Position numbers and translations under genes: made by a program. DNA of 64,000 nucleotides, from contig JBAMLY010000009.1 in NCBI GenBank assembly GCA_039794045.1, positions 38,609 to 102,608 on the forward strand. The letters are read 5' to 3'. This document shows, one piece after another, positions 1 to 49,542 of this stretch. The notes beneath the pieces are model-generated. The model was not told where the DNA came from. It did not search any database and saw only the letters and a list, made by a program, of their open reading frames with translations. The stretch is from Candidatus Micrarchaeia archaeon (lineage in GTDB: Archaea > Micrarchaeota > Micrarchaeia > Norongarragalinales > UBA8480). Positions within the stretch are counted from its first letter, which is position 1, and the number at the start of each line of letters is the position of its first letter.

Positions 1-38
1 CAAGAAATGCGAGTAAAACAAAGCGAGAAAGATTTTTC

Positions 39-449
39 GTGAAGAAAGGGTTTTTTTCTTCTGATGCCGCAATCGCGTCCTTGCTAGTGATAGCTATAAT
101 GGGTTTAGCTGTTTTTTCCTTGCGCGCCAACGCTATAAGCCTCGAACAAAAAAGCAGGGAAGCATTCCTGGAGCGCGTGGCCATAGAATCTGCCGACTTC
201 TTGTTGAAAAAGTGCGTTGGCGAGGGAGGGATTGCCGAGTGCAGCGCAACCGTGCACTCTCACGAGCTCGTGCAAGACGCTGAAAGCGCGGCGCGCGAGG
301 AAGCTAGCGAGCTTTCCAGGTTTTTCGGGGCAAGAGTGGAAGCATGGGTGCGCCCTGTTGGCGCGGAAGTAGTTGGCGGCGGCGTTTGCGTGAAGAGGCT
401 TGCCTTGCTTGAAGAAAAGGAAGTAGTGTTGGTGGTGTGCGCGCGGTGA
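39..449 (+). CDS. Pilin-like protein with class III (type IV prepilin) signal peptide, GTG start
   Basis: N-terminus MKKG|FFSSD followed by a ~20-aa hydrophobic helix, with an acidic residue at +5 after the predicted K-G cleavage site. Rest of the protein has no recognisable domain. Confidence 0.45.
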   Translation: MKKGFFSSDAAIASLLVIAIMGLAVFSLRANAISLEQKSREAFLERVAIESADFLLKKCVGEGGIAECSATVHSHELVQDAESAAREEASELSRFFGARVEAWVRPVGAEVVGGGVCVKRLALLEEKEVVLVVCAR

Positions 450-841
450 AGGGACTAGTTTTCTCTGTAGAGGCTTTGTTGAGCTTGCTCGCGGCAACCG
501 GTTTTGCTGCGCTGGTTGTAACCTCCAACGCGCCTGTCGGGCACGAGAGGGTTTACGAGTTCCAATTGGCGCAAGACTTTGCTGAAGTCTTGTGCAAGAG
601 CCACGAAAACAGGAAGGCGGTAGTTGAATTAGCTGGCGGGGGCGAGGCAACCGCGTTGCGCGAAAAAATTTTTGAGGCAGTGCACTCTCTGGGAAACTAT
701 TGCGTTAAAGTAAAGGCTGCAGAAAACGAGATCACAGTAAACTGCGATAGACAGCCAAACAATTTCGCGTCGGCGCAGAGGACTTTCTTTGACGGCAAAA
801 AGTTTTTCGTCGCCAGCGTTTCGGTTGGCTATTTTTCTTGA
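437..841 (+). CDS. Pilin-like protein, class III signal peptide
   Basis: N-terminus MRAVKG|LVFSVEALLSLLAATGFAALVV: basic residue then Gly, a hydrophobic helix and an acidic residue near +5/+6. It overlaps the upstream gene by 13 nt, which suggests an operon. Confidence 0.4.
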   Translation: MRAVKGLVFSVEALLSLLAATGFAALVVTSNAPVGHERVYEFQLAQDFAEVLCKSHENRKAVVELAGGGEATALREKIFEAVHSLGNYCVKVKAAENEITVNCDRQPNNFASAQRTFFDGKKFFVASVSVGYFS

Positions 842-1260
842 GCGAATGACACCCGCACTTCCCCGTTCAAGCAAGAAACAGTTGCCTGAAAGCTTCCACG
901 TGGAAGTCGAGTGGCGTTATAGAGGCTCACTGGGAATGAGAGGGCGCGCGAACTGTTTGAAGCCCTGCCACTTGAAGCAAAACTCATGCGAAGCTCGCCG
1001 GAGTCGGCGTCAAAGAAAAAAGAAGTATTGTCTGCCGGCAGGAAAACAGGGGTTGAAAAAGAGTTGCCGTTGCCGAGCACTGACGCATGCGAAGCCGCTT
1101 CCGCTACCCTGCTTAAAGCGCTTTCTTGAGCGCGCGACACTGCCGCGAAATTCGCGAGCGCGCGCGCAGAATTTATTGCTGGAATAAAGGCGGCAAGAAA
1201 AGCGAACAACGCCGCAAGAAGAATTATTAGTTCAACGCTGGCCTGGCTGTGCTTGCGCAT
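829..1260 (-). CDS. Pilin-like secreted protein, class III signal peptide
   Basis: N-terminus MRKHS|QASVELIILLAALFAFLAAF, i.e. Q at +1 and E at +5 like the pilins at 42-46 kb. Several N-x-S/T sequons (NTS, NSS, NAT). Confidence 0.45.
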   Translation of the reverse strand: MRKHSQASVELIILLAALFAFLAAFIPAINSARALANFAAVSRAQESALSRVAEAASHASVLGNGNSFSTPVFLPADNTSFFFDADSGELRMSFASSGRASNSSRALSFPVSLYNATRLPRGSFQATVSCLNGEVRVSFAQEK

Positions 1261-1810
1261 TATTCCAAGCTCCTACTTGAGAGAGCAGTTCGCTGGCTGA
1301 CTCGAAGTCCACGAGCGTCTTAAAGCATCCGTCGTTCAACAAAGCGACTCCGAGCGCTGGAATCCCGAGTTTTTCGCATGCCGCCAACCCGTCCTCTATT
1401 TCGCGAATGCACCCAAAGCCAATAACTGCGCCGGGCTTCTCGCGCTTTATTATCCTGAATAATATGGTGCTGCCGGGAGTAACGAAAACAGGTATTTTCA
1501 GACGCTCCTGCAAGAGCTTTACTTGGCAGGTGTCGTCGCACTTCTTGCAATGAAACCCGTTCTCGTCAAAGGAAGCGCGGCACTCGCCTTTAACGAGGCG
1601 GACGGGACTGCGAATGCAGTGCGGAAGGAAAGCGATTTTCTTTTTAGCTGCCTTGACTGCGGCGAGGTTTTTGTAGTTCTTTGCGCCTATTATGACGAGT
1701 GAAGCCTCGCGCTCGCTTATGCCGAACAAGTCGGCTACCCTGAGCTTCAAATCCTTTGAACTCAAGTCGAAGGCTATTGCCCTCTGAATAAAGTCTTTGA
1801 GTACGCTCAT
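1232..1810 (-). CDS. Conserved Cys-rich protein of unknown function (possibly DUF116-like)
   Basis: 192-aa ORF with CxxC and CxxxC clusters (HCKKCDDTC, GCIREIEDGLAAC). Family assignment is from memory only. Confidence 0.35.
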   Translation of the reverse strand: MSVLKDFIQRAIAFDLSSKDLKLRVADLFGISEREASLVIIGAKNYKNLAAVKAAKKKIAFLPHCIRSPVRLVKGECRASFDENGFHCKKCDDTCQVKLLQERLKIPVFVTPGSTILFRIIKREKPGAVIGFGCIREIEDGLAACEKLGIPALGVALLNDGCFKTLVDFESASELLSQVGAWNNAQAQPGQR

Positions 1811-1845
1811 TCAAATCAAGCAATAGAGTGGTGGACAAAGCTTTT

Positions 1846-2013
1846 CTACTTTATGTCCGCTATCTCGTCGAACGCTTTTTCGGTTTCGTTGCCGATTACT
1901 TTTTTTCCGGTTTGAGCCGTGCGCTGAAGCTGAGTAATCAAAACGACTGCAACTGCAATGACTGCTGCAATGATTATTATTAGTTCGGCGCTGACTTGAG
2001 CTTTCTCGTCCAT
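1846..2013 (-). CDS. Short Flp-like minipilin, class III signal peptide (start moved to internal ATG)
   Basis: The internal Met gives MDEKA|QVSAELIIIIAAVIAVAVVL (Q+1, E+5), the same MDE[KR]AQ start as the ORFs at 41959 and 44236. A GGAGGA Shine-Dalgarno lies about 8 nt upstream of this ATG. The 34-aa N-terminal extension in the ORF track is unlikely to be real. Confidence 0.55.
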   Translation of the reverse strand: MDEKAQVSAELIIIIAAVIAVAVVLITQLQRTAQTGKKVIGNETEKAFDEIADIK

Positions 2014-2027
2014 TTCTTTGTTCCTCC

Positions 2028-2684
2028 TCAGGCGGGCGTTCCCGCGAAAAACGCCGGGCCGAAAACCAGCAAGAAAAGCACGGCAGTTAACACTACCCAT
2101 ACAACTGCGTTCCACTTAAATATTTTCTCTCCATCGAAAGGAAAGAAGGGAATGGTGTTGAAGAGACCAAGCCAAGCGTTCGCCTTGTAGCCCAACCCTC
2201 CCACGAGCGCAACCATTCCCGCAGCTTCCTTGTTGCCTGAAGCCAGCACGAGGGGGACGACGAAGAACAACACTCCAGCGAAAAACAATGCGACAACCAA
2301 GTTAGTGAGCGGCCCGGCGATAGAAATCACTCCGTTCTGCTTGCGGTTAAGGTGCGGCCCAAAAATATATACCGCGCCAGGCGCCGCGAAAACTATTCCC
2401 ATGAATGAAGTCATTACAGCTACAAGCAGCCCAACCGGCCAGGCGCGAAACGCAGCGAAAGCACCATAGTGCTGCGCAGTGTACTTGTGAGCCAACTCGT
2501 GCAATACGAAGCCTGCGCCCACCGTCAAGAGAACGACTGCAAACGTGACGGCAAAGCTTGCGTCAGAAGGCACTCCCGCGAACGCTACAGAGAAAGCAAA
2601 AGAAATTACGGTAAGGGCAACGAAAATGTTCAGCATTTCTTGGTTATCCATAAAATTCTCCTCTCCTGCCACCAATTGCTTCAA
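2028..2684 (-). CDS. Membrane zinc metalloprotease, site-2-protease (M50) like
   Basis: HELAH (HExxH) sits in a transmembrane segment, with a downstream FDG motif resembling the LDG motif of S2P/M50 proteases. Polytopic membrane protein of 218 aa. Confidence 0.6.
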   Translation of the reverse strand: MKQLVAGEENFMDNQEMLNIFVALTVISFAFSVAFAGVPSDASFAVTFAVVLLTVGAGFVLHELAHKYTAQHYGAFAAFRAWPVGLLVAVMTSFMGIVFAAPGAVYIFGPHLNRKQNGVISIAGPLTNLVVALFFAGVLFFVVPLVLASGNKEAAGMVALVGGLGYKANAWLGLFNTIPFFPFDGEKIFKWNAVVWVVLTAVLFLLVFGPAFFAGTPA

Positions 2685-2702
2685 ACTTCTGCGTTAGCCA
2701 CT

Positions 2703-4868
<2,166 letters not shown>

Positions 4869-12434: not shown

Positions 12435-12542
12435 TGCCGCTGGTGTGATTTGAACACACGACATACCGGTCTTCAGCTTCGTCACCCCCGGCGCTTGACG
12501 CGCCGCGGATTCGGACGCTCTCCCAGTCTGAGCTACAGCGGC
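12435..12542 (-). tRNA. Intron-containing tRNA, probably tRNA-Phe(GAA), with a ~34-nt intron at a non-canonical position
   Basis: Reverse complement: acceptor stem GCCGCTG/CAGCGGC, D-arm GCTC-AGACTGGGA-GAGC, T-arm GTGTG-TTCAAAT-CACAC, discriminator A. An anticodon-loop candidate CTGAAGA lies next to CCGGT. About 34 extra nt (containing the hairpin GGCGCGTCAAGCGCC) sit 5' of the loop, and I could not place exact exon-intron borders by eye. Confidence 0.55.
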
Positions 12543-37670: not shown

Positions 37671-38036
37671 GTGGTTGGAGTGAGCGAGTTCAAGCAAGCA
37701 ATAATAATTCGCTGCGACCTCGGAATGGGGAAAGGAAAAATGGTGGCGCAAGGAAGCCATGCGTCGCTCCTCGCCTTTGAGGAAGCCCTAAAGAAAAACG
37801 AGGAAGCCGCGCGCGCTTGGCAAGCGAGCGGAAGCAAGAAAATAGTTCTGAGGGCTGCAAGCGAAAAAGAACTCGTCGAACTATACGCTAAAGCAAGGAA
37901 GGCAAGACTGCCTGCAGCGCTCGTAGTTGACGCGGGGCACACGCAAATAGAGGCGGGCACGAAGACCGCAGCTGGCATCGGACCAGCAGAAGAAAGCGCG
38001 CTTGACAAGATCACTGGAAAACTCAGGTTGTTATAG
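37671..38036 (+). CDS. pth2: Peptidyl-tRNA hydrolase Pth2 (archaeal type)
   Basis: 121 aa: KQAIIIRCDLGMGKGKMVAQGSHASL...GIGP, characteristic of Pth2. Confidence 0.85.
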   Translation: MVGVSEFKQAIIIRCDLGMGKGKMVAQGSHASLLAFEEALKKNEEAARAWQASGSKKIVLRAASEKELVELYAKARKARLPAALVVDAGHTQIEAGTKTAAGIGPAEESALDKITGKLRLL

Positions 38037-38088
38037 CGCTGCCACAAAGCTTTTTGAACACTCGCCGCATTCTATTTTTGAGCGCAAA

Positions 38089-39645
38089 ATGGCTTACTTG
38101 GACGAATTGATAGGGAAAGCGAAAGCGCAAAAAAAGGGAGTGGCTGGGCTCACGCCTGGCACGAAAGAACCAGAAAAGCCAGGCGGGCCAGAAAAAGAAA
38201 AAGTGTTGATTGACACTTACGACTCAGTCCACATCTACCGCGTGCCAGGAGAAGCCCTCTACTTCTACGAAGTCCCAACCCCGCGCTACCGCGGCGAAGA
38301 AAAAGCCTTGATTCAAGCCCTCATGGACATCGCAAGCAAAGTAATAGAAAGCGAGCACGAAGTCCCCCGCACTCTAGAGCAAAAGCGTTTCGCTTACAAG
38401 CAAAAAATCCTTGACATAATAGAGTCAACGCCGGAACTCAAAGTGCCGCCTGCCGCTAAAGAATTTTATGCTGACGCGGTAGTGCGCGAGATGGTAGGCT
38501 GGGGCTTGATAGACCCGCTCCTGGAAGACGAGTGGCTTGAAGATGTTATGGTGAACGGCCCAAACCAGCCAGTCTACGTCTTCCACAGGAAATACGACAT
38601 GATGAAGACGAACATAGTCTTCTACGACGACAAAGACATTCGCGACTTGATAGACCGCATCGCGCGCACCATAGGACGCCACATAGACATTCAAACCCCT
38701 TTGCTGGACGCGAGGCTCCCCGACGGAACGCGCGTGAACGCAACAGTGCCGCCAGCGAGCTTGAACGGCTCCACTTTGTCAATAAGAAAGTTCCGCACCG
38801 ACCCAATAACCATAATAGACTTAGTAAACTACGGCACGCTCAACTACGAAGTGGCCGCGTTTCTTTGGCTGGCAGCCGACGGCTTCGGAGCAAAGCCAGC
38901 CAACATGATAATAAGCGGCGGCACGGCAAGCGGGAAGACGACGCTATTGAACGTCATCTCGTCACTGGTGCCGAACAGCGAGCGCGTCATCACAATAGAA
39001 GACACTGCTGAACTCAACTTGCCGCTGGAGCAATGGGTTCGCTTTGAAACAAGGCCTCCTGGCGTGGAGGGCGGCGGCGAACTCACGATGGACATGCTGT
39101 TAAAGAACTCGCTGCGCATGAGGCCAGACCGCATCATTGTCGGCGAAATCCGGGGAGAGGAAGGACACACTCTTTTCTCGGCGATGAACACAGGACACGA
39201 CGGCTGCCTTGGAACGCTTCACGCAAACAGCGCGCGTGAAACCCTCATTCGCCTCAGCAACCCGCCAATCAACGTTCCCCTCATAATGCTTTCTTCCCTC
39301 AACTTCATCATAATGGAGCAGAGAATCAATGACCGCCGCAAGGGACTCATTCGCCGCATCACGGAAATAGCGGAAGTGATTTCAGTAGAGGAAAACAAGA
39401 TGCCCGAACTCCAAGTAATCTATCAATGGGACCCCGCAAAAGACGTCCTGCAAAGCACTGGAATGAATCCCTTGTACTTCCAAGTACTGCAGCGCTACAC
39501 GGCCTACACCAAGGACGTCATAGAAGAAGAACTCAAAAACCGCGCCAACATATTGAGGGAACTAAACTCGCGTGGCGTGCGCAGCCTCTCTGACGTGTGC
39601 GCCGTAACCCACAACTACATCTTGCGCACTCAAGGAAAACTGTGA
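38089..39645 (+). CDS. Type IV pilus assembly ATPase (FlaI/PilB/TadA-like); start moved to MAYLDEL
   Basis: Walker A ISGGTASGKTT, Asp/His boxes (RPDRIIVGEIRG, GTLHANS). It heads a locus with PilC-like genes and many prepilins. Confidence 0.85.
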   Translation: MAYLDELIGKAKAQKKGVAGLTPGTKEPEKPGGPEKEKVLIDTYDSVHIYRVPGEALYFYEVPTPRYRGEEKALIQALMDIASKVIESEHEVPRTLEQKRFAYKQKILDIIESTPELKVPPAAKEFYADAVVREMVGWGLIDPLLEDEWLEDVMVNGPNQPVYVFHRKYDMMKTNIVFYDDKDIRDLIDRIARTIGRHIDIQTPLLDARLPDGTRVNATVPPASLNGSTLSIRKFRTDPITIIDLVNYGTLNYEVAAFLWLAADGFGAKPANMIISGGTASGKTTLLNVISSLVPNSERVITIEDTAELNLPLEQWVRFETRPPGVEGGGELTMDMLLKNSLRMRPDRIIVGEIRGEEGHTLFSAMNTGHDGCLGTLHANSARETLIRLSNPPINVPLIMLSSLNFIIMEQRINDRRKGLIRRITEIAEVISVEENKMPELQVIYQWDPAKDVLQSTGMNPLYFQVLQRYTAYTKDVIEEELKNRANILRELNSRGVRSLSDVCAVTHNYILRTQGKL

Positions 39646-39657
39646 GGCCTTCAGTGA

Positions 39658-40797
39658 ATGCCTGAAAGCAAGCTGGAAAAAATAAAGCGCGCCGTGGAAA
39701 AAACAGAGCTTGAAACCCGCGCCGAAGTCTTGAAGGAAGAAGAGCTGGCGCGCCGCCGCGAACTCGACGAAATAATCGCAAAACTCAAGGAAAAACAAAA
39801 AAAAGGTTTTGTGGCAGAAAAGCGGCTGGAAAAAATAAAGGAGCACGTAGAAGAAAAACCAGAAATAAGCGAGGAAGAAACCAAGGCAGCAATCCGCTTG
39901 CAAGTAAGCAAGACGAAGGGAGTAGGCTGGTTTTACTCTTCCCTGCAAAAACCCATAACTTCAGTGTCAAAAGTTTTCTCTGTTATTCCAGTCGCAAAAA
40001 ACTTGAAGAAAGAACTCGCAAGCGCAGACATGCACATCACGCCAGAAGCCTACCTCGCCCTAACTACCACGGTCTCCGTCATAGCCGCAATAACTACTTG
40101 GATTGCCGCAGGCATTCTAGCGACTAGCTTGAGTAACTTGAGTGTAATAGAAATAGCTTCATCTATCTCGCTTGCCTTCGTTGGAGCAGTGCTGGCGTTC
40201 TTCGGGGTTTCTGCAGTCGCGCTCGCTTACCCTTCAATTCGCGCGTCCGAGCGAGCAAACAAAATAGACAAGGAACTGCCGTTCGCGTTGCGCCACCTCG
40301 CCACTCAACTCAAGGCCGGCGTGAGCCTCAACCGCGCAATGCGGTCAGTCGCGGACGCCAACTACGGCGCACTCACGCAAGAGTTCAGAAAAACGCTCGC
40401 TGACTTGGAGAGCGGCTTGAGCACGGAAGACGCGTTATTGAAGCTTGCAGACCGCAACCGCTCTCGAGGCCTAAAGCGCGCGGTAGTGCAAATAACGCGC
40501 GCGATCAGGACGGGCGGAAACCTCGCCGAAATAATTTCATCCATAGCAGACGACATCTCGTTTGAGTCCCGCATGAAAATACGCGACTTCACGGAAATGC
40601 TGAACATAATAAGCATAGTCTACATAATGGTAGGAGTAGTCGCGCCAGTAATGATAACCATTCTGTCCGCCGTAGCCCAGCTGCCAGTGTTCGGTGGCGG
40701 GATAGCATTCGGATTAGTGCTCGCAGTGTTCGCGGGAATAGTGGGCGCTACTGGCGCCCTCATCTTCCTAATCAAGAGACTAGAACCAGTAGCGTGA
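39658..40797 (+). CDS. Type IV pilus platform membrane protein (TadC/FlaJ/PilC-like)
   Basis: 379 aa with a coiled-coil N-terminus, then TM helices and a GspF/TadC-like cytoplasmic segment (LPFALRHLATQLKAGVSLNRAMRSVAD). Follows the ATPase. Confidence 0.65.
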   Translation: MPESKLEKIKRAVEKTELETRAEVLKEEELARRRELDEIIAKLKEKQKKGFVAEKRLEKIKEHVEEKPEISEEETKAAIRLQVSKTKGVGWFYSSLQKPITSVSKVFSVIPVAKNLKKELASADMHITPEAYLALTTTVSVIAAITTWIAAGILATSLSNLSVIEIASSISLAFVGAVLAFFGVSAVALAYPSIRASERANKIDKELPFALRHLATQLKAGVSLNRAMRSVADANYGALTQEFRKTLADLESGLSTEDALLKLADRNRSRGLKRAVVQITRAIRTGGNLAEIISSIADDISFESRMKIRDFTEMLNIISIVYIMVGVVAPVMITILSAVAQLPVFGGGIAFGLVLAVFAGIVGATGALIFLIKRLEPVA

Positions 40798-40801
40798 AAA
40801 A

Positions 40802-41845
40802 ATGACTTCGCTTTCGCAGCAGTGGGAAAACTTGAAGCGCTACTATGCGGCAACCGGCTTCCGAATAAGCCTGCCTGCCTTCATGGCGGTGATGCTGGCT
40901 TTCGCGGCAATAGCTGCCATGGCAAGCCTTGCGTTAATTCAACTCTTGCCGCCGGACTTGAAGCAGAACGCCCCCATAGTCGCGGCAGCATGCTTTGCAG
41001 CAATAATTTCGTTAATCATAGGCATTCCCGTTACGATCAGAAACAACCGCATTTCAGCAATAGAAAATAACTTGCCTGACGCGCTCAAGCACATGGCTTT
41101 AGTATTAAAGGCAGGCGGAACCACTGAAGCCGCGCTAGAAGAAGTGGCGAACGCAGACTACGGCCCACTCAGCGCAGACCTCAAAATTGGCTTGAAGGGC
41201 TTGAAGGAAGGAAAGCCGTTCGACGACGTGCTCCGCGAAACCGCAATAAACACTGGCTCGGTGTTGTTCAACAGGACTAGCGCAATAATGGTTGACGCGC
41301 GCCGCGCTGGCGCTGGCTTGGCAGATGTCATGAACGCGGTGGGAGACGACGCGCGAGACATTCTCCGCATCGGGCGCGAGCGAAAGAGTAGGACGATGAT
41401 GCACGTAATGTTCCTAATAATTTCAGGGTTGTTTCTCTCGCCATTCATTTTCGGCTTCACGATGAGCATTGTTTCCTTCATGTCTTCCGGAATTGCAGTG
41501 AGCGGCACAGGGCTCGGCGAAAGCGGGAGCACCGTCAACATGACAATCGCAGACTGCAGGGTTCCCTGCCTCATTCAAACCGACCCAGTAATGGCTGGCT
41601 TTCTCGCGGCCGGCCTTGCTCCCTTGAACACCGTAAAGCCATTGTACGAGTGGAGGCTCAACGCAATGGACCAGCTTTTAATGGTTTTCCTCGCAATAGT
41701 TTCAATAGTCACGCTCGTAGCAATAGGAGTTATAAGGGAAGGAAAACTGTTCAAGTACGTGCTTTACTTCCCCTTCGCCATACTCGCAGTAATAGTAATA
41801 TATTTGGCTGGAAAAATATTCAGTGGATTCATTATTGGGTCGTGA
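40802..41845 (+). CDS. Second TadC/FlaJ/PilC-like platform membrane protein
   Basis: 347 aa, paralogous in layout (LPDALKHMALVLKAGGTTEAALEEVANADYG). Tandem with the 39658 gene, as split PilC halves would be. Confidence 0.65.
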   Translation: MTSLSQQWENLKRYYAATGFRISLPAFMAVMLAFAAIAAMASLALIQLLPPDLKQNAPIVAAACFAAIISLIIGIPVTIRNNRISAIENNLPDALKHMALVLKAGGTTEAALEEVANADYGPLSADLKIGLKGLKEGKPFDDVLRETAINTGSVLFNRTSAIMVDARRAGAGLADVMNAVGDDARDILRIGRERKSRTMMHVMFLIISGLFLSPFIFGFTMSIVSFMSSGIAVSGTGLGESGSTVNMTIADCRVPCLIQTDPVMAGFLAAGLAPLNTVKPLYEWRLNAMDQLLMVFLAIVSIVTLVAIGVIREGKLFKYVLYFPFAILAVIVIYLAGKIFSGFIIGS

Positions 41846-41958: not shown

Positions 41959-42165
41959 ATGGATGAAAAAGCACAGGGAGCATTCGAGTACATTTTAATG
42001 CTGGCAGGCATTCTCTTGATCGTGGTCGTAATAATAATGGTGGTGAAGTCCAACATTCTCTCGCCGGCCACAGGGACAGTAGAACAAACAACTGGTCAAT
42101 ACCAGCAAACCACTAACTGTAGTGACTTGAACGCTTCAACGCTGCAGGAATGCTTGAACAAATAA
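41959..42165 (+). CDS. Short pilin (68 aa), class III signal peptide MDEKA|QGAFEY
   Basis: The signal peptide and helix are nearly identical to the four major pilin paralogs, but the C-terminal part is short (2 Cys, sequons NCS, NAS). Confidence 0.6.
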   Translation: MDEKAQGAFEYILMLAGILLIVVVIIMVVKSNILSPATGTVEQTTGQYQQTTNCSDLNASTLQECLNK

Positions 42166-42179
42166 GGAAGGTGAAAAAA

Positions 42180-42602
42180 ATGGGTTTTGCGCCGCGAAAG
42201 GGACAGGGAGCCTTCGAGTACATATTATTGCTCGCTGGCATTCTCTTAATAGTAGTAATCGTAATAATAGTCCTCAAAAGCGGTTTGACGCAGCAGTCGA
42301 GCACGAACATTGGAGAGTCAAGCGAGAAAATCCGCGTGAACGCGGCAGTGCGGTGCCTAGACTTCTGCGGCGACGGCGCGTGGGCTTGGGTAAAGTCAGC
42401 TAACTCGTCGATAACGCTTCAATACAACTCTTCTTGCCCGATTGCCGCAGGACTCAATGGAACTCCTAATTGCTTCTGGACTGGAAGCGACAACGCCGTC
42501 GGCTGCAACGCCACGTGGTCTACTGGAAGCAGCGTCTACGCCAACACTCCGCCCAACAACGCGAAATTCTGTCAGTTGGCGCAGCAGAGCTCGAGCAGCT
42601 GA
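42180..42602 (+). CDS. Major pilin paralog 1 (class III signal peptide, 6-Cys framework)
   Basis: MGFAPRKG|QGAFEYILLLAGILLIVV, then CLDFCGDGAW and C..NC..GCNAT..FC. Sequons NSS, NSS, NGT, NAT. RBS AGGAAGGTG upstream. Confidence 0.75.
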   Translation: MGFAPRKGQGAFEYILLLAGILLIVVIVIIVLKSGLTQQSSTNIGESSEKIRVNAAVRCLDFCGDGAWAWVKSANSSITLQYNSSCPIAAGLNGTPNCFWTGSDNAVGCNATWSTGSSVYANTPPNNAKFCQLAQQSSSS

Positions 42603-42610
42603 GCGCCACC

Positions 42611-42643
42611 CCTCTTTTTATTTTTATTCAAACTATTTTTTTC
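42611..42643 (+). promoter_or_regulatory. AT/T-rich intergenic element (TTTTTATTTTTATT): putative TATA/BRE promoter for pilin paralog 2 and T-rich terminator for paralog 1
   Basis: This is the only AT-rich stretch between the two pilin ORFs and lies about 20-30 nt upstream of the ATG at 42644. Confidence 0.35.
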
Positions 42644-43081
42644 ATGCCACGAAAACGCGGGCAAGGAGCTTTTGAATACATCTTGTTAGTCGCAGGCATT
42701 CTGTTAATCGTGGTCGTCGTCGTCTTGCTCTTGAAGTCAGGCGTAGTGCAAGGCGCGCAGAAAAACGTTGGCGAAAGCAGTGGAAGGCTTTCCGTGAACA
42801 GCAAGATAAGCTGCCTAGATTTCTGCGGCGAAGGGGCTTGGAGTTACGTGGCGAACGCCGAGCCAAGCGCGCGCGTGACGCCTTACGTTGACGCGTGCAC
42901 TCTCGCGGAAGGAGTGAACGGCAACGCTTCCTGTTTTTACGGTGAAAGCGACGCGGCTGCGCGCGACGGCGCCTACCATTACTGGTGCAACGCATCCAAC
43001 GTGACTGGAATGCAGAAGTACGCAAACACGCGTCCCAACAACCAGTTGTTCTGCGGCTACGTGCGCGAAAACGCTCCCTGA
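42644..43081 (+). CDS. Major pilin paralog 2; start moved to MPRKRG|QGAFEY
   Basis: Same signal peptide; CLDFCGEGAW, AC..SC..WCNAS..FCGYV. Sequons NAS, NAS, NVT. Confidence 0.75.
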   Translation: MPRKRGQGAFEYILLVAGILLIVVVVVLLLKSGVVQGAQKNVGESSGRLSVNSKISCLDFCGEGAWSYVANAEPSARVTPYVDACTLAEGVNGNASCFYGESDAAARDGAYHYWCNASNVTGMQKYANTRPNNQLFCGYVRENAP

Positions 43082-43099
43082 AAAGAATTTATATCGCGG

Positions 43100-43588
43100 T
43101 TGATTATTGGCTTAAACGGTTTGAGAGAGATTAAATTGAGAATTCCAGAGTTTGGGAAAAGAGGCCAGGGAGCCTTTGAATACATTTTGCTCGTCGCAGG
43201 CATTCTGCTCATCGTCGTGCTCGTCATACTACTCCTAAAGGGCGGGCTGGTGTCGCAAAGCGGTGCCAACGTGGCCGAGTCAGGCGAGAAAGCACGCATA
43301 AACAGCGAAATAAATTGCCTGCAATTCTGTGGCGCTGGCGCGTGGAAGTACATAACGCCAAATGCGAAGGGTAATTACACTAATTGCACTGTAAGAGAAG
43401 GAATAACCGGCAATCCGGCGTGCTTCTGGAACGCCAGCACTGGCGACACGGCAACCTGCAACGTCACTGCAGTTCTCATCGAGGCAGGCTATACTCCATC
43501 CGAGGCAGCAAAATACTACAATGTAACGCCCGCCAACACTGACTTCTGCGGCTACGTAAGGCAGACCGCCAAGGAAAGCACGAGGTAA
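43100..43588 (+). CDS. Major pilin paralog 3 (start uncertain: TTG at 43100, 43121 or 43136)
   Basis: ...EFGKRG|QGAFEYILLVAGILLIVV; CLQFCGAGAW, NC..AC..TCNVT..FCGYV. Sequons NYT, NCT, NAS, NVT, NVT. A TTTATAT box sits at about 43088. Confidence 0.7.
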   Translation: MIIGLNGLREIKLRIPEFGKRGQGAFEYILLVAGILLIVVLVILLLKGGLVSQSGANVAESGEKARINSEINCLQFCGAGAWKYITPNAKGNYTNCTVREGITGNPACFWNASTGDTATCNVTAVLIEAGYTPSEAAKYYNVTPANTDFCGYVRQTAKESTR

Positions 43589-43686
43589 GCAACGCGACCC
43601 ACCCGTGACTTTAAAAAAGCCACGAAATTTATTTTTAAAGAAGTGAACGCCTTCGAGGCGTTAAAAAGAATGGAGGGAAAAAGAAA

Positions 43687-44157
43687 ATGGTGCCCACCTT
43701 GAATTTAAAAAAGAAGAAAGGGCAGGGAGCCTTCGAGTACATCTTGCTCGTCGCAGGCATTCTGCTCATCGTAGTAATCGTGGTCTTCCTGTTGAAGGGA
43801 GGACTGCAAGCGCAAGCCGGAAGCGGCGGTGTAGTAAGCACGAGCACGGAAAAAATCAACATCAACGTGGAAAGCCAGTGCTTGGACTTCTGCGGCCCGG
43901 GCGCTTGGGCAGCGTACGGAGTGCAAAACAGTGACTTCGCAAACACTAATTGCACTCTCGCCGAAGGAGTAAACGGCAACAGCAGCTGCTACTACTCTGC
44001 AACCACTATAGGCAATAACGGCTTATGTAACGCGACTTACGTCTTAAAGCCCGGCGTTGCGCAAAGCAAGGGCTTACTGAACTCAAGTGGCGCCACGGTA
44101 GTACACCCGCAGAACACGCAGTTCTGCACTTACGTGCGCCAAGCAAGAGCAGGCTAG
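43687..44157 (+). CDS. Major pilin paralog 4
   Basis: MVPTLNLKKKKG|QGAFEYILLVAGILLIVV; CLDFCGPGAW, NC..SC..LCNAT..FCTYV. Sequons NCT, NSS, NAT, NSS. GGAGGG RBS upstream. Confidence 0.75.
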   Translation: MVPTLNLKKKKGQGAFEYILLVAGILLIVVIVVFLLKGGLQAQAGSGGVVSTSTEKININVESQCLDFCGPGAWAAYGVQNSDFANTNCTLAEGVNGNSSCYYSATTIGNNGLCNATYVLKPGVAQSKGLLNSSGATVVHPQNTQFCTYVRQARAG

Positions 44158-44235
44158 AACTTCCCGCTTTTCCCCCTTTTTTTATTTCTTCTTTTCCCTA
44201 AACCTTTTTATTGAAGGCGGGCCTGCAATAAAGTC

Positions 44236-44406
44236 ATGGACGAGCGAGCGCAGACCGCCACTGAGTACTTGCTTATTCTAGCGCTTGGCCTCGTCTTGCT
44301 CGGCGTCGTGCTCGCCATGGCTTTGCGCCTCCGCGACTTCAGCAACGTCTTGACCGGCCGCGTGGCAGAAGAAAGAAACAATACCTTGTCGATGCTAGTC
44401 AGCTGA
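44236..44406 (+). CDS. Minipilin (56 aa) with class III signal peptide; absent from the ORF track
   Basis: MDERA|QTATEYLLILALGLVLLGVVLAMAL.... The start mirrors the ORFs at 1846 and 41959. Confidence 0.5.
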   Translation: MDERAQTATEYLLILALGLVLLGVVLAMALRLRDFSNVLTGRVAEERNNTLSMLVS

Positions 44407-44439
44407 ACTAATTTTATACCAGCGGCGCTACTTGATTGC

Positions 44440-45492
44440 ATGCAGTACGCCTTGCCGGCATTAGTGGCAGCAGCTTTTGCTTGCACTGCAACAGTGTGGG
44501 ACTTGAGGAAGCGCTTGATTCCCAACGCGTTAAACTATTCATTTCTCGCCGCGGGGGCGGCGCTGGCGCTAGCGCAAGGAATTTTTTCTGTGGGTTACGT
44601 CGGACTAGTTGCGTTGTCTTTTGCTTTCGCTTATGCTTTGTACAAGGCAGGCGTTTGGGCTGGGGGAGACGCAAAGTTTTTCACGGCGCTCTCGTCTTTC
44701 CTGCCTTTCTTTTGGCAAGTACCGTTGACTGGCTGGAACGTTTTCTCTTTCCTAGCAATATTTTTTTACTCGGTGGCAGCAGGAGTGCCTGTCACTCTCC
44801 TCGCTTGCGCGCCAAAGCTGTGGTTGTTGCGTGGCGAGCTCGCTTCGCTCTTGCGCGCAGCAGCGCCGCGCGCTTTCTCGGCAGCGCTTGCTTCAGCGGC
44901 GGTTGCCTTTGCGTTGCAAAAGTTTTTCGCGCTCGTTCCACAAGCTGGTTGGGTTGCCTCGGCAGCCGCAGTCGTGTTTTTGTTGGCGGCGCGCGTGCCG
45001 CTAGCGGTTTCTGCGGCCGTCTTCGTTGCCGCTCTCGCGCTAGACCCGTTGAACTCGCTTGAGTTGTTTGCTGGCGCGCTCGCGGTCTCGTGGCTTGCGT
45101 TGTTCGCGTGGCAGGCGCTCGCGCTTGCCAGGAACAAGGTTTTGCGCCGCCACGTGAGAGTAGACGAGTTAGAAGAGGGAATGATTCCGGCTTACTCTGT
45201 GGTCGTTGACGAGAGCGGAAGAGCGCGGGAGTTGAGAACGCCTGGCTTAAAGGAGTTGCTTGCCGCCGCGGGAAAGGCTGATGCTGCCGCGCTGGCGCGG
45301 TTGCTCAAGCCACGGGAAAGAATAGTCGCGGACTCCAGGCTAGCTCGTGGTTTGAGTGAGACAGAGATAAAGGAATTAAAGGCGCTTGGAGTAAAGAGTT
45401 TGGTTGTCCGCGAGTCCATCGCGTTCGCGCCAGTAATGGTTGCTGGGTTCGCGTTGGCGGCTTTGCTGGGAGTGAAGTGGCTTGGCTTTTAA
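44440..45492 (+). CDS. Prepilin/preflagellin peptidase (A24 family, FlaK/PibD/EppA-like)
   Basis: First catalytic Asp in DLRKRLIPN, second in GGDAKFF, and a polytopic membrane topology. At 350 aa it has a long hydrophobic C-terminal extension. Confidence 0.8.
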   Translation: MQYALPALVAAAFACTATVWDLRKRLIPNALNYSFLAAGAALALAQGIFSVGYVGLVALSFAFAYALYKAGVWAGGDAKFFTALSSFLPFFWQVPLTGWNVFSFLAIFFYSVAAGVPVTLLACAPKLWLLRGELASLLRAAAPRAFSAALASAAVAFALQKFFALVPQAGWVASAAAVVFLLAARVPLAVSAAVFVAALALDPLNSLELFAGALAVSWLALFAWQALALARNKVLRRHVRVDELEEGMIPAYSVVVDESGRARELRTPGLKELLAAAGKADAAALARLLKPRERIVADSRLARGLSETEIKELKALGVKSLVVRESIAFAPVMVAGFALAALLGVKWLGF

Positions 45493-45916
45493 GAGAGGAC
45501 AGTTGGGAATAGAGTTTTTCTTGGTGGTGGCGTTCGTGCTTGTTCTCGGCAGCGTCTTGAGTGCTTCCGTGGACGAGCAAGTCATTGCCGCGAGGGCCTT
45601 AGACAGGGCTGCGCTAGCGAAAAGCGCGGTGGATGCAGTGTCTCACGCAATAAACCTCGTCACGCTGGAAGGCAACGGGGCTCTTGCCAGCAGAGAAGTT
45701 TTCTTTCCAGCTGAAACGCAGTGCATCCAGTACAGCAGCGCACGCAAGGCGCTTTACTGCGATGTCGCGGGAGCAGGCAAGGTTTACGGCGTAGCGCTTT
45801 ACCGCGAGCCGACAGTGTTACTGAATTGTTTTTCTTCAGGCACTCAAGGCTGGTTCCTTGTGACCGTGAATGGAACCAGCAATGGAGCGCAAGTTAATTG
45901 TACTAAACTGGGTTGA
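45482..45916 (+). CDS. Pilin-like protein (class III signal peptide MAFKRG|QLGIEFF), TTG start
   Basis: Q+1 and E+5, a hydrophobic helix and 3 Cys. It overlaps the peptidase stop by 11 nt. Confidence 0.6.
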   Translation: MAFKRGQLGIEFFLVVAFVLVLGSVLSASVDEQVIAARALDRAALAKSAVDAVSHAINLVTLEGNGALASREVFFPAETQCIQYSSARKALYCDVAGAGKVYGVALYREPTVLLNCFSSGTQGWFLVTVNGTSNGAQVNCTKLG

Positions 45917-45922
45917 AGTTGT

Positions 45923-48343: not shown

Positions 48344-48373
48344 CTCTTTTAAACCGAGGCGAGTAATGTTTTC

Positions 48374-48790
48374 ATGGTGCGCGCCCAACTGTCAATTGAA
48401 TTGTTTTTTGCTTTAGCATTGTTTTTCCTGGTGCTTTCGTGGGTGTCAAACTATGCTTCCACTGTCTATGACTCGCCAGCCCTCGTTTACACGCAGGAAA
48501 AAGCGGTAGCCAACTCACTGGTTGCCGCCGCGAACGCAGCCTGCGCTTCAAACACTTCGTCTTCTTTTTATTTGCCCTGCATTTCCAAGCGCGGCACAAA
48601 CTACGACTACGAGGCATTCAACGCGACCTCTAACTCGCCCGAGTTGCGAGTGCGCGTTCCAGCCCTGAACTCGTTCGCGCAAGCCAGGGCCTTGTGCCCA
48701 ATTTCAGGTTACGCCTCGGCTGAATGCGGGACTCTCGTGTGCATGAAAAGTAATTCTTCGTCAGTGTTGCTGAAAAACGGTGCTTGTTGA
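48374..48790 (+). CDS. Pilin-like secreted protein (class III signal peptide MVRA|QLSIELFF)
   Basis: Q+1 and E+5, 7 Cys, sequons NTS, NAT, NSS. Confidence 0.55.
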   Translation: MVRAQLSIELFFALALFFLVLSWVSNYASTVYDSPALVYTQEKAVANSLVAAANAACASNTSSSFYLPCISKRGTNYDYEAFNATSNSPELRVRVPALNSFAQARALCPISGYASAECGTLVCMKSNSSSVLLKNGAC

Positions 48791-49162
48791 GTGAAGGGAC
48801 AATTTTTCACAATGGATTTCCTCGCCGCAATAATAGTGGTCACTGCAGTGGTAGGTGGAATGCTTCACTTCCACGAACTCAACCAAAAAGCCTTCCTGCG
48901 CGCGACTGAATACAACTCTAACTCTGCTGAAGCGCTGGCGGAATACTTCGTGAACAACAACGCCACGCCTCCCTTCCAGCCGGCTTGCTGGTGCGCAGTG
49001 ATGCGGAACGCGACAAGCGTTTTCTACGACGACTGCAGAGAAAAAGAGTGCATGCGTTCTTGCAGTACGGTGTTCGCAGCAACGCGTCTTTCCCGCTACT
49101 GCTTGAACGCTACTTGCCCATGCGAAGGAGTTTCGTGTGCTTTAGAGGTGAGAACGTGCTGA
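48791..49162 (+). CDS. Cys-rich pilin-like secreted protein (MKG|QFFTMDF), GTG start
   Basis: K-G-Q motif plus a hydrophobic helix, 11 Cys, and three NAT sequons. The start codon abuts the upstream stop. Confidence 0.5.
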   Translation: MKGQFFTMDFLAAIIVVTAVVGGMLHFHELNQKAFLRATEYNSNSAEALAEYFVNNNATPPFQPACWCAVMRNATSVFYDDCREKECMRSCSTVFAATRLSRYCLNATCPCEGVSCALEVRTC

Positions 49163-49542
49163 AGGCCGCCATACTGTCTTTCGACGCGCTGCTGGCGCTT
49201 GCCGTCGCCGCTATAGCGTTCGGCTCAGTTGTTTCGTTCAGCAGCCTTGGCGCCGACAACTCCAAGAACGCACAGTTGAACGCGTTGGCGTGGGACTTCC
49301 TACACGACAAATACGGATTGAATTTGACTGTTTCAGCTGACGACTTCCACAACTTGACTGGACGCCACGTATTCGAAAGCCCTCCTTCAACAGCGCCCGC
49401 CGGGCACGCTCTTTACTACAAGTACAACAACTTGTGCGGTTGCGGGCAGTCATGCTACCTTGAAAACGAAATTAACACGTCGTGCTTGGAAGCGCAGGAC
49501 AATAACTCGAAGTACGAGTTCGAGGCTTGGGTGACTCCTTGA
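49156..49542 (+). CDS. Secreted or membrane-anchored protein with N-terminal hydrophobic helix (GTG start overlapping the upstream stop)
   Basis: GTGCTGA start-stop overlap. MLKAAILSFDALLALAVAAIAF, then CGCGQSC and sequons NLT, NLT, NTS. Confidence 0.4.
   Translation: MLKAAILSFDALLALAVAAIAFGSVVSFSSLGADNSKNAQLNALAWDFLHDKYGLNLTVSADDFHNLTGRHVFESPPSTAPAGHALYYKYNNLCGCGQSCYLENEINTSCLEAQDNNSKYEFEAWVTP

What the first reader, a model, noticed from the sequence alone, without database searches (positions are those of the whole stretch)
39..2684. A second, smaller group of prepilin-like genes at the window edge (three pilin-like ORFs, one minipilin, an S2P-like membrane protease)
Three consecutive ORFs (39-449, 437-841, and 829-1260 on the minus strand) each begin with a basic residue, a small residue, a ~20-aa hydrophobic helix and an acidic residue at +5/+6. 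The small ORF at 1846-2013 starts MDEKA|QVSAELIIII behind a GGAGGA RBS, mirroring the minipilins at 41959 and 44236. Pilin-like genes are therefore not confined to the main locus at 38-51 kb. The neighbouring M50-like membrane protease (HELAH...FDG) is an unusual neighbour for pilins.
Basis: partly seen in the sequence, partly recalled or inferred. Interest (0 to 1): 0.5.

Follow-up and report, generated by a model that had tools for sequence, protein, structure and literature searches.

The report
Second prepilin gene cluster in Micrarchaeota
Far from its main pilus genes, this tiny symbiotic archaeon carries a second, evolutionarily conserved set of six small pilin-type surface proteins, only partly inside the window; this is real but fairly ordinary for archaea, although the protein families involved have never been annotated.

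Summary
It also encodes a 55-aa minipilin (1846-2013,-; PF04021 above threshold), a DUF116 protein and an M50 protease.

The source contig (Candidatus Micrarchaeia MAG) shows the window cuts the cluster. Two more genes, A and B, lie upstream of coordinate 1, and A-B-ORF1-ORF2 are joined by GTGA start/stop overlaps.

The same neighbourhood recurs in eight or more Micrarchaeota lineages. There the leaders vary from 2 to 20 residues, while the [KR][GAS] junction and the following hydrophobic, acidic-at-+5/+6 N-terminus stay fixed. That is the signature of prepilin peptidase substrates.

- ORF3 is a full-length paralog of a pilin gene in the main locus (hhalign 94%).
- ORF2 belongs to a family of about 76 sequence clusters. 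The members that carry names are all Micrarchaeota hypothetical proteins, and none matches Pfam.
- ORF2's head domain models confidently but resembles PDC/Cache sensor domains, not solved pilins.
- No assembly ATPase lies within 10 kb in any lineage.

Most likely this is a machinery-less pilin set served by the 38-45 kb machinery. The M50 adjacency is conserved, but a functional link is untested. Verdict: new members of a known kind, moderate interest.

The parts
1..42 (+). 3' end (last 13 codons plus TGA) of gene B. B is a 119-aa class-III-type protein (MKA|QLSMEFMV...) whose body, together with the 204-aa gene A, lies upstream of the window.
   Evidence: Source contig fetched as L001. The TGA at 40-42 overlaps the GTG start of ORF1 at 39 (GTGA).
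39..449 (+). ORF1, family C, 136 aa: MKKG|FFSSD followed by a 19-residue uncharged helix. Four conserved Cys (59, 68, 117, 134).
   Evidence: Conserved in 8 lineages, with leaders of 2-9 residues. AF2 gives low confidence (pLDDT 48) with a long N-terminal helix and 3 strands. No Pfam or NCBIfam hit. One distant orthologue scores 25.8 bits to DUF7263, just under the threshold of 27.
446..841 (+). ORF2, family D, 131 aa (alternative start 437): MKG|LVFSVEALLSLL. Near-invariant E9, D44, C86, C100 and R112.
   Evidence: The exhaustive profile search found 76 cluster representatives, 44 of them at E<=1e-10, all with the same N-terminal architecture. AF2 pLDDT is 77 overall and about 90 for the head domain.
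829..1260 (-). ORF3, family E, 143 aa: MRKHS|QASVELIILL. Q1, S3, E5 and P22 of the predicted mature protein are invariant. Three N-glycosylation sequons.
   Evidence: Paralog of window 45482-45916. 2 of 9 family members hit PF04021. IMG names one member 'UPF0333 family'.
1232..1810 (-). DUF116 protein, 192 aa, Cys-rich. It sits between the minipilin and ORF3 and overlaps the ORF3 start by 29 bp.
   Evidence: PF01976 at 9.9e-30. Present in the window's subclade only; absent in L009 and L015. Probably an insertion and not a core part.
1846..2013 (-). Minipilin, 55 aa: MDEKA|QVSAELIIIIAAVIAVAVVLITQLQ..., giving a predicted 50-aa mature protein.
   Evidence: PF04021 at 26.2 bits against a threshold of 23.7. 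It is the most conserved protein of the neighbourhood among the closer lineages (75-87% identity against 29-53% for the others); in the most distant lineage it is 51% against 48% for M50.
2022..2027 (-). Shine-Dalgarno-like GGAGGA, 8 nt upstream of the minipilin ATG and abutting the M50 stop codon (2028-2030).
   Evidence: Read directly from the sequence.
2028..2651 (-). [quoted passage not shown] Motifs HELAH and NTIPFFPFDG.
   Evidence: PF02163 at 29.3 bits against a threshold of 27.2. Both motifs are conserved in 7 lineages, and the gene always lies directly upstream of the minipilin.
44440..45492 (+). Presumed processing enzyme: A24 prepilin peptidase with an archaeal C-terminal domain, 350 aa. 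This is an inferred partner, not part of the flagged interval.
   Evidence: PF01478 at 3.4e-11 and PF06819 at 1.7e-6. Contains WDLRKRLIPN and AGGD Asp motifs.
38002..41845 (+). Presumed assembly machinery: a T2SSE-family ATPase (38002-39645) and two T2SSF/TadB-TadC-like membrane proteins (39658-40797 and 40802-41845). This is an inferred partner.
   Evidence: PF00437 at 3.6e-48; PF00482 at 1.1e-25 and 5.1e-17.
45482..45916 (+). Main-locus paralog of ORF3/E, 144 aa: MAFKRG|QLGIEFF.
   Evidence: hhalign of the 9-sequence E family against this protein gives 94.2%, E 1.1e-7, 130 columns.
48374..49542 (+). Main-locus trio in the same order as B-C-D: 48374-48790 (MVRA|QLSIE), 48791-49162 (MKG|QFFTMD) and 49114-49542 (..KA|AILSFDALL).
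   Evidence: D family against 49114: hhalign 65.5%, E 5.8e-5 and hmmsearch 4e-4. C against 48791: 42%. B against 48374: 25%, N-terminus only. Paralogy of the trio is only suggested.

Best explanation
The window edge carries the downstream half of a conserved Micrarchaeota neighbourhood that encodes a machinery-less set of prepilin-type (class III signal peptide) proteins.

Shown:
- Four small genes form a translationally coupled operon: A and B lie upstream of coordinate 1, C is ORF1 and D is ORF2.
- This operon converges on E (ORF3), which lies in the unit M50 protease -> 55-aa minipilin -> DUF116 -> E.
- B, C, D, E and the minipilin each start with a short basic leader ending in [KR][GAS]. 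A roughly 20-residue hydrophobic helix follows, carrying Asp or Glu at +5/+6.
- The leader varies in length between lineages, while the junction and the mature N-terminus are conserved.
- E is homologous to a pilin-like gene of the main T4P locus.

Inferred:
- The precursors insert in the membrane and are cut at that junction by the A24 prepilin peptidase encoded at 44440-45492.
- The T2SSE ATPase and TadB/TadC-like platform at 38002-41845 then extracts and polymerises them.
- The almost invariant 50-residue minipilin is most likely a fibre-forming, Flp/EpdE-like subunit.
- B to E evolve fast and have small Cys-paired heads. They are most likely minor pilins made in fixed ratios, forming a priming or tip complex with an adhesive, possibly host-contact, role.
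- A may be a Sec-type or anchor protein rather than a pilin.
- M50 and DUF116 are neighbours with no demonstrated role in this.
For: - Gene map and the operon extension beyond the window.
- GTGA or TTGA start/stop overlaps at all three junctions in five lineages.
- Sense-frame conservation, with the antisense ORFs not conserved.
- The same gene order in the window/L001, L003, L004/5, L006, L007/8, L009 and L015. Partial versions occur in L011, L013 and L014.
- N-terminal table showing variable leaders and a fixed junction. The same holds across about 70 D-family representatives.
- Class-III-like N-termini occur only in the two clusters of the window (15 true hits, against 0-1 in controls).
- The minipilin passes PF04021.
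- E is a paralog of the main-locus pilin (94%). Q1, S3, E5 and P22 are invariant in E.
- Peptidase, ATPase and two T2SSF genes are on the same contig.
- Each protein has a single N-terminal hydrophobic segment and no other transmembrane segment. Cys pairs are conserved and E carries glycosylation sequons.
- The minipilin is the most conserved protein of the neighbourhood.
- Literature: pilin genes outside T4P operons are common in archaea, such stand-alone genes have proved to be major pilins, and one ATPase/TadC pair can serve several pilin sets (PMC4858521). [quoted passage not shown]
Against: - No T4P ATPase, TadC or peptidase lies within 10 kb of the cluster in any of the loci examined. 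In the window the machinery is 37 kb away.
- ORF1-3 get no Pfam or NCBIfam hit, and 0 of 68 D-family members hit Pfam.
- The C model has low confidence.
- C and D have a hydrophobic +1 residue, whereas the only peptidase seen is EppA-like in size and domains, and M. maripaludis EppA requires Gln at +1.
- ORF3 has Ser at -1 in the window's clade; it is Ala or Gly in more distant orthologues.
- Family A lacks the acidic residue and has an AxA-like site after a Pro, so it could be a Sec signal peptide.
- No prediction server (FlaFind, SignalP) and no experiment was available.
Confidence: 0.6

Rival explanations
1. The proteins have pilin-like N-termini but are not pilus subunits. They form a short pseudopilus or a membrane-anchored surface complex, comparable to the Sulfolobus bindosome with its class-III-signal binding proteins and BasABC. 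This complex would display small ligand-binding heads such as D's PDC/Cache-like domain, for substrate capture or sensing rather than fibre formation.
Confidence: 0.2
2. The M50 protease and the minipilin are a functional pair. The site-2-type intramembrane protease cleaves or degrades the 50-residue, N-in single-pass minipilin, and perhaps other unassembled pilins. The cassette would then be about proteolytic control or peptide release rather than simply fibre building.
For: M50 lies directly upstream of the minipilin in 7 lineages, with a 0-71 bp gap. In the window the minipilin's ribosome-binding site abuts the M50 stop codon. The catalytic HExxH and NxxPxxxxDG motifs are conserved. E. coli RseP degrades small membrane proteins (PMC10470546). 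Substrates of archaeal S2P enzymes are unknown (PMC9263693).
Against: The whole region, including the unrelated genes for CDC48, NFACT, topoisomerase and RFC, is syntenic in the same lineages. Adjacency alone therefore carries little weight. M50 could equally belong with CDC48 and the 135-aa membrane protein in protein quality control. No test outside Micrarchaeota was possible.
Confidence: 0.08
3. The N-termini are ordinary Sec signal peptides or uncleaved signal anchors. The proteins would be unrelated secreted or anchored proteins that merely look pilin-like.
For: Family A (outside the window) has a Pro followed by an A-x-A-like site after about 13 hydrophobic residues, and lacks the acidic residue. 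ORF1-3 have no PF04021 hit.
Against: A conserved Asp or Glu sits 5-6 residues into the hydrophobic stretch. The most conserved part of each protein is the very start of the predicted mature sequence. Leaders vary from 2 to 20 residues but always end in [KR][GAS]. E has pilin-type Q1, S3, E5 and P22 and is homologous to a T4P-locus gene. Such N-termini occur nowhere else in the window.
Confidence: 0.05
4. ORF1 and ORF2 are spurious. The real gene would be the 181-aa antisense ORF at 105-650.
For: The antisense ORF is longer, and a greedy longest-ORF map picks it.
Against: The antisense translation is not conserved in the relative, whereas ORF1 and ORF2 are conserved full-length. Two independent annotations call ORF1 and ORF2. 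ORF2 has about 76 homologous clusters.
Confidence: 0.01

Closest known systems
Epd pili of Methanococcus maripaludis (EpdA-E pilins, EppA peptidase)
   Same: Class III signals with Gln at +1 and Glu at +5 occur in B, E, the minipilin and all main-locus pilins. There is a large A24 peptidase with an extra archaeal C-terminal domain. A short candidate major pilin is encoded away from the machinery. [quoted passage not shown]
   Different: Apart from the PF04021 N-terminal motif, no sequence relationship of A to E to any annotated family (Pfam, NCBIfam, PDB sequences) was detected; Epd proteins were not compared directly. C and D have a hydrophobic +1 residue, which EppA does not accept in M. maripaludis. 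Here the set is a coupled four-gene operon plus a convergent pair, conserved as a block next to M50 and CDC48.
Bacterial Tad/Flp pili (Flp pilin, TadE/TadF pseudopilins, TadB/TadC)
   Same: The platform protein is split into two T2SSF-domain genes. The helical pilin is very small (about 50 residues mature). Additional pseudopilin-like proteins are present.
   Different: The minipilin matches PF04021, and no Flp-family match was listed for it. It has Gln at +1 rather than the Flp motif. There are five accessory pilin-like proteins rather than two. The organism is archaeal.
Bacterial minor-pilin operons (GspH-I-J-K, FimU-PilVWX, ComGD-GG)
   Same: Four consecutive small genes with prepilin-type N-termini and an acidic residue at +5/+6. 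They are co-translated, which suits a fixed-stoichiometry priming or tip complex. Cys pairs are present in the heads.
   Different: No homology was detected (PDB sequence searches were empty). D's head does not retrieve any minor pilin structure. The operon is unlinked to the machinery.
Sulfolobus bindosome system (class-III-signal binding proteins plus BasABC)
   Same: Non-fibre use of prepilin-type signals. Small pilin-like proteins are combined with extracellular ligand-binding folds.
   Different: No dedicated BasE/F-like ATPase or membrane protein lies next to the cluster. The proteins here are far smaller than substrate-binding proteins.
Pfam PF04021 Class_IIIsignal / UPF0333
   Same: The minipilin passes the threshold. 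2 of 9 E-family members hit it at E<=7.5e-5, and IMG labels one E member UPF0333.
   Different: The window's ORF1, ORF2 and ORF3 do not reach any reportable score.

Membership tests
Archaeal class III (prepilin-type) signal peptide proteins | A short basic leader ends in a small residue and is followed directly by a roughly 20-residue hydrophobic segment at the extreme N-terminus. | tested here: met
   ORF1 MKKG|FF.., ORF2 MKG|LV.., ORF3 MRKHS|QA.., minipilin MDEKA|QV... Each has an uncharged stretch of 18-24 residues and no other transmembrane-like segment. The -1 residue of ORF3 is Ser, which is non-canonical; it is Ala or Gly in L009, L013, L014 and L015.
Archaeal class III (prepilin-type) signal peptide proteins | Across orthologues, the leader varies in length and sequence while the cleavage junction and the mature N-terminus are conserved. 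| tested here: met
   Leaders are 2-9 residues in C, 2-20 in D, 3-6 in E and 5-14 in the minipilin. The +1 to +12 region is the best conserved part of each family.
Archaeal class III (prepilin-type) signal peptide proteins | Match to Pfam PF04021 at or above the gathering score. | tested here: met
   This applies to the minipilin only: 26.2 bits against 23.7.
Archaeal class III (prepilin-type) signal peptide proteins | Match of ORF1, ORF2 and ORF3 to PF04021 or any pilin HMM. | tested here: not met
   No Pfam hit at E<=0.1 and no NCBIfam hit. 0 of 68 D-family members hit Pfam. 2 of 9 E-family orthologues hit PF04021, one of them (L013) below threshold at 16.7 bits.
Archaeal class III (prepilin-type) signal peptide proteins | A cognate A24 prepilin peptidase is encoded in the genome. 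| tested here: met
   Window 44440-45492 matches PF01478 and PF06819, and both Asp motifs are present.
Archaeal class III (prepilin-type) signal peptide proteins | Actual cleavage at the predicted site. | not testable with these tools
   This needs mass spectrometry or a cleavage assay. FlaFind and SignalP were not available.
Type IV pilins / minor pilins (structural subunits of a T4P-like filament) | Homology to a pilin-like gene inside a T4P machinery locus. | tested here: met
   E family against window 45482-45916: hhalign 94.2%, E 1.1e-7, 130 columns. D against 49114: 65.5%, N-terminal 47 columns only. C (42%) and B (25%) are weak.
Type IV pilins / minor pilins (structural subunits of a T4P-like filament) | Genomic linkage to an assembly ATPase and a TadC/PilC platform. 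| tested here: inconclusive
   They are on the same contig but 37 kb away. None lies within 10 kb in any of the roughly 10 loci examined. Unlinked pilin genes are common in archaea (PMC4858521).
Type IV pilins / minor pilins (structural subunits of a T4P-like filament) | Pilin fold: a long N-terminal helix packed on an antiparallel beta-sheet head, or an Ig-like head as in solved archaeal pilins. | tested here: inconclusive
EppA-type substrates (Methanococcus Epd-like pilins) | Gln at +1 and Glu at +5. | tested here: met
   This holds for B, ORF3/E and the minipilin (Q1 and E5).
EppA-type substrates (Methanococcus Epd-like pilins) | Gln at +1 in ORF1 and ORF2. | tested here: not met
   ORF1 has Phe, Ile or Val at +1. 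ORF2 has Leu, Ile or Phe at +1. The acidic residue is at +5 (ORF1) or +6 (ORF2).
Peptidase M50 (site-2 protease family) | HExxH and NxxPxxxxDG metal-binding motifs in a polytopic membrane protein, with a Pfam match above threshold. | tested here: met
   HELAH at 62 and NTIPFFPFDG at 176, both conserved in 7 orthologues. PF02163 at 29.3 bits against 27.2. Membrane topology was not computed.
DUF116 (PF01976) | Pfam match above threshold. | tested here: met
   103.5 bits against 25, covering profile positions 5-153 of 155.

The most novel reading that the evidence does not exclude
The conserved gene pair 'M50 site-2-type protease -> 50-residue minipilin' is a protease-substrate pair. The intramembrane protease would cut or clear the N-in, single-pass minipilin, whose ectodomain is short enough to need no site-1 cleavage. 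This would control the membrane pool of a pilus subunit or release a peptide. It would be the first candidate natural substrate for an archaeal S2P and a new layer of pilus regulation in host-dependent DPANN archaea.
Probability: 0.1. Interest if true: 0.65.

Novelty: new member of a known kind. Interest (0 to 1): 0.35.

Why it matters
Micrarchaeota are ultra-small, host-dependent archaea. Thin pilus-like filaments and 'pili-like connections' to hosts have been seen by cryo-tomography, but their components are unknown (PMC11329633).

This work defines a conserved gene block of five unannotated pilin-like families plus an almost invariant 50-residue minipilin. In the named members it is restricted to Micrarchaeota. 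These are concrete candidates for the fibre subunit and for its tip or adhesion proteins.

It also gives a usable profile for family D (about 76 sequence clusters, none with a Pfam match) and corrected gene starts.

For genome annotation in general it is an unsurprising case, because archaea commonly scatter pilin genes away from the assembly machinery (PMC4858521).

Tried and rejected
- Word-index homology search with ORF1 found only itself. With a 2-sequence profile of A it found only 5 proteins.
- I concatenated B+C+D+E from five genomes into one profile, to recover all families in a single capped search.
- The genome-contig scan anchored on DUF116 gave a single related locus. It was useful but narrow.
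With the close alignment it gave only 3 loci, one of them a duplicate.
I got round this by registering the same sequences through the cluster look-up.
- The AF2 model of ORF1 was too poor to search with.
- The afdb50 fold library was unavailable.
- PDB sequence searches with the D and E profiles were empty.
- Family A showed no detectable paralogy to the main-locus genes at 49527 and 50239.
- Pairwise BLAST among the window's pilin-like proteins showed little beyond their N-termini.
- The idea that the antisense 181-aa ORF is the real gene was rejected by conservation.
- A literature search for DUF7263 found nothing.

Full report
**What is in the interval.**
- ORF1 (39-449) and ORF2 (437/446-841) are on the plus strand.
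- ORF3 (829-1260), a DUF116 gene (1232-1810, PF01976 at 9.9e-30), the 55-aa minipilin (1846-2013) and the M50 protease (2028-2651/2684) are on the minus strand.
- ORF2 and ORF3 converge and overlap by 13 bp.
- The minipilin is the only one of the four pilin-like ORFs with a Pfam hit: PF04021 Class_IIIsignal, 26.2 bits against a threshold of 23.7.
- M50 passes PF02163 (29.3 against 27.2) and has HELAH and NTIPFFPFDG.
- GGAGGA sits at 2022-2027, between the M50 stop codon and the minipilin ATG.

**Is it more than chance?** I scanned every six-frame ORF and every alternative start for a specific pattern. The pattern was [KRH][GAS] within the first 20 residues, an acidic residue at +5 or +6, then 15 uncharged residues with high hydropathy.
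- The window gave 16 hits: four at 39-2013, eleven at 41959-49542, one false hit inside the peptidase gene, and none in the remaining roughly 50 kb.
- The reversed sequence gave 0 hits and ten shuffles gave 0-1.
- The main locus is a bona fide T4P/Tad-like locus. It has a T2SSE ATPase, two T2SSF genes, PF04021 pilins and an A24 peptidase with the archaeal C-terminal domain and both Asp motifs.

**The window cuts the cluster.** An exact-protein look-up placed the window on a 156-kb JGI contig and an NCBI MAG contig of Candidatus Micrarchaeia.
- Upstream of coordinate 1 lie two more plus-strand genes: A (204 aa, MKA|VISF...) and B (119 aa, MKA|QLSMEF..., a textbook QxSxE start).
- The A/B, B/ORF1 and ORF1/ORF2 junctions are all GTGA start/stop overlaps. 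This also argues that ORF2 starts at 446 (MKG|LVFSVE).
- Further upstream come a DUF4897-like surface protein, RFC, a GTPase and Cdc6, with no additional pilus machinery.

**They are real, conserved genes.**
- A second Micrarchaeota MAG (L003) has the same order. The sense-frame identities are A 49%, B 38%, ORF1 34%, ORF2 42%, ORF3 42%, minipilin 84%, DUF116 58% and M50 50%. The antisense ORFs are not conserved.
- Three further lineages found through family A keep the same block. Two more distant ones, found through family D (L009 and L015), keep it too.
- The block reads RFC - Y - [A B C D] -> <- [E - (DUF116) - minipilin - M50 - (X135) - CDC48 - NFACT - TopoI].
- L011 keeps A-B-C-D in another context. 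L013 and L014 keep only the convergent D/E pair.
- In five lineages the three junctions are GTGA or TTGA overlaps.
- DUF116 is present only in the window's subclade.

**Are the N-termini class III signals?** The strongest argument is comparative. The residues before the junction vary freely, while the junction and the next dozen or so residues are the best conserved part of each protein.
- C leaders: MKK, MK, MNLLEKRR, MQDKRQSK.
- D leaders: from MK to MARVVFLSRASGK.
- Minipilin leaders: from MDEK to MAFLNNSFLGDSK.
- Conserved junctions: B KA|QxSxE; C G|[FIV]FSxD; D [GA]|[LIF]xFSxEALL; E [SAG]|Q[AL]SxE; minipilin A|QVSAELIIVIAALIAVAVVL.
- E has invariant Q1, S3, E5 and P22 of the predicted mature protein.
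- Each protein has one N-terminal hydrophobic segment only. Conserved Cys pairs occur in B (51/99), C (59/68 and 117/134) and D (86/100), and E carries 1-4 N-glycosylation sequons.
- A conserved acidic residue inside the hydrophobic stretch, together with this pattern of conservation, is not what Sec signal peptides or plain anchors show.
- Family A is the exception. It lacks the acidic residue and has a Pro plus an A-x-A-like site, so it may be Sec-type.
- Remaining caveats: the window's ORF3 has Ser at -1. C and D lack Gln at +1, whereas the peptidase looks EppA-like, and M. maripaludis EppA needs Gln at +1 (PMC4371748).

**How wide are the families?**
- The word-index search saw almost nothing.
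- The exhaustive profile search with D found 76 cluster representatives (44 at E<=1e-10). Almost all are 110-152 aa, match end to end, and share the N-terminal architecture.
- All members that carry a name are 'hypothetical protein, Candidatus Micrarchaeota'.
- None of 68 members hits Pfam, and the window proteins hit no NCBIfam model.
- One distant C-family member scores 25.8 bits to DUF7263, just under the threshold.

**Structure.**
- With 7 sequences, AF2 models D at pLDDT 77, and about 90 for residues 33-131. The model has a transmembrane helix, three helices and a four-strand meander, with C86 and C100 near each other in sequence.
- The C model is unreliable (pLDDT 48), although it shows a 56-residue N-terminal helix followed by strands.
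- The fold evidence therefore neither confirms nor excludes a pilin head.

**Link to the main locus.**
- A 9-sequence E profile aligns over 130 columns with the pilin-like gene at 45482-45916, immediately downstream of the peptidase (hhalign 94.2%, E 1.1e-7).
- The main locus also ends with three genes in the order B-like (48374, RA|QLSIE), C-like (48791, MKG|QFFTMD) and D-like (49114, KA|AILSFDALL).
- The D profile matches 49114 at 65.5%, E 5.8e-5, including the post-helix QLAQDxL motif. C against 48791 gives 42% and B against 48374 gives 25%.
- The second cluster thus looks like an old, diverged duplicate of the main locus's accessory pilin set, firmly for E and tentatively for the rest.

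**Mechanism proposed, and rivals.** Most likely (0.6) this is a machinery-less pilin set.
- The precursors would be cut by the A24 peptidase and assembled by the ATPase/TadBC platform 37 kb away.
- The minipilin is the most conserved protein of the neighbourhood (75-87% identity among the closer lineages). It would be a Flp/EpdE-like fibre subunit.
- The co-translated, fast-evolving B to E would be minor pilins forming a priming, tip or adhesion complex.
- This fits what is known for archaea. Pilin genes outside T4P operons are common, such stand-alone genes have proved to be major pilins, and one ATPase/TadC pair can serve several pilin sets (PMC4858521). M. maripaludis needs several minor pilins, including EpdD (PMC4371748).

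The rivals are:
- a pseudopilus or bindosome-like surface complex with ligand-binding heads (0.2);
- a functional M50-minipilin protease-substrate pair (0.08), plausible because S2P enzymes degrade small membrane proteins (PMC10470546) and archaeal S2P substrates are unknown (PMC9263693);
- ordinary Sec signals or anchors (0.05);
- spurious ORFs (0.01, refuted).

**The M50 neighbour.** The adjacency is conserved in seven lineages, and in the window the two genes are almost fused. However, the flanking housekeeping genes are conserved in the same way. M50 may equally belong with CDC48 and a small membrane protein that the window lacks. I could not test the association outside Micrarchaeota.

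**Verdict.** It is a new set of unannotated families of a known kind (archaeal class-III-signal, pilin-like proteins encoded away from the machinery). It is of moderate interest, mainly as a source of candidate surface or host-contact proteins of Micrarchaeota.

Noticed in passing
window 12435-12542 (-): The single Rfam hit in the window is a tRNA spanning 108 nt, much longer than a standard tRNA. It probably contains an intron.
   Followed up: no
window 2652-2702; L004 4377-4784; L006 5528-5935; L015 11684-12103: Most relatives have a 135-139 aa membrane protein between M50 and CDC48, with an N-terminal transmembrane region and a C-terminal 'KIKVRLPDGRRGEG' OB-like segment. The window lacks it, and the two genes there are only 18-50 bp apart.
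   Followed up: partly
L015 12200-16099; L009 8474-11173; window 2703-4862: The neighbouring CDC48 gene carries an intein in one lineage (PF14890, 1299 aa) and is 899 aa in another. The window copy is 719 aa and has no Intein_splicing (PF14890) match among its listed Pfam hits.
   Followed up: no
window 1232-1810: The DUF116 gene sits between the minipilin and ORF3 only in the window's subclade. In L009 and L015 the minipilin is followed directly by E. DUF116 therefore looks like an insertion into the unit rather than a core component.
   Followed up: partly
window 41959-44157: Four tandem paralogous pilins (42150, 42644, 43121 and 43687; 145-156 aa) and a 68-aa mini version (41959) share a nearly identical mature N-terminus, QGAFEYIL(L/M)(L/V)AGILLIVV. 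The greedy ORF map mis-called several of them on the wrong strand.
   Followed up: partly
window 47198-48343: A TctA-family permease (PF01970, 1.5e-25) is embedded among the pilin-like genes of the main T4P locus.
   Followed up: no
window 1846-2013 and orthologues: In the closer lineages the 55-aa minipilin is far more conserved than every neighbour, including the M50 protease (75-87% identity against 29-53%); DUF116 was compared only in L003 (58% against 84%). In the most distant lineage the margin is small: 51% against 48% for M50. This points to strong packing constraints.
   Followed up: partly
L001 12231-12962 (upstream of the window, divergent from gene A): A 243-aa protein with an N-terminal signal sequence, a C-terminal transmembrane anchor and a near-threshold DUF4897 match (27.4 bits against 28.6). 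It is conserved next to the A-D operon in L001, L003, L004, L006, L007, L009 and L015, and could be an associated surface protein.
   Followed up: no
L014 8821-11074: In one distant MAG the D/E convergent pair occurs without A to C. It lies next to an unrelated 379-aa protein and in a different neighbourhood, so D and E are the most tightly linked pair of the set.
   Followed up: no
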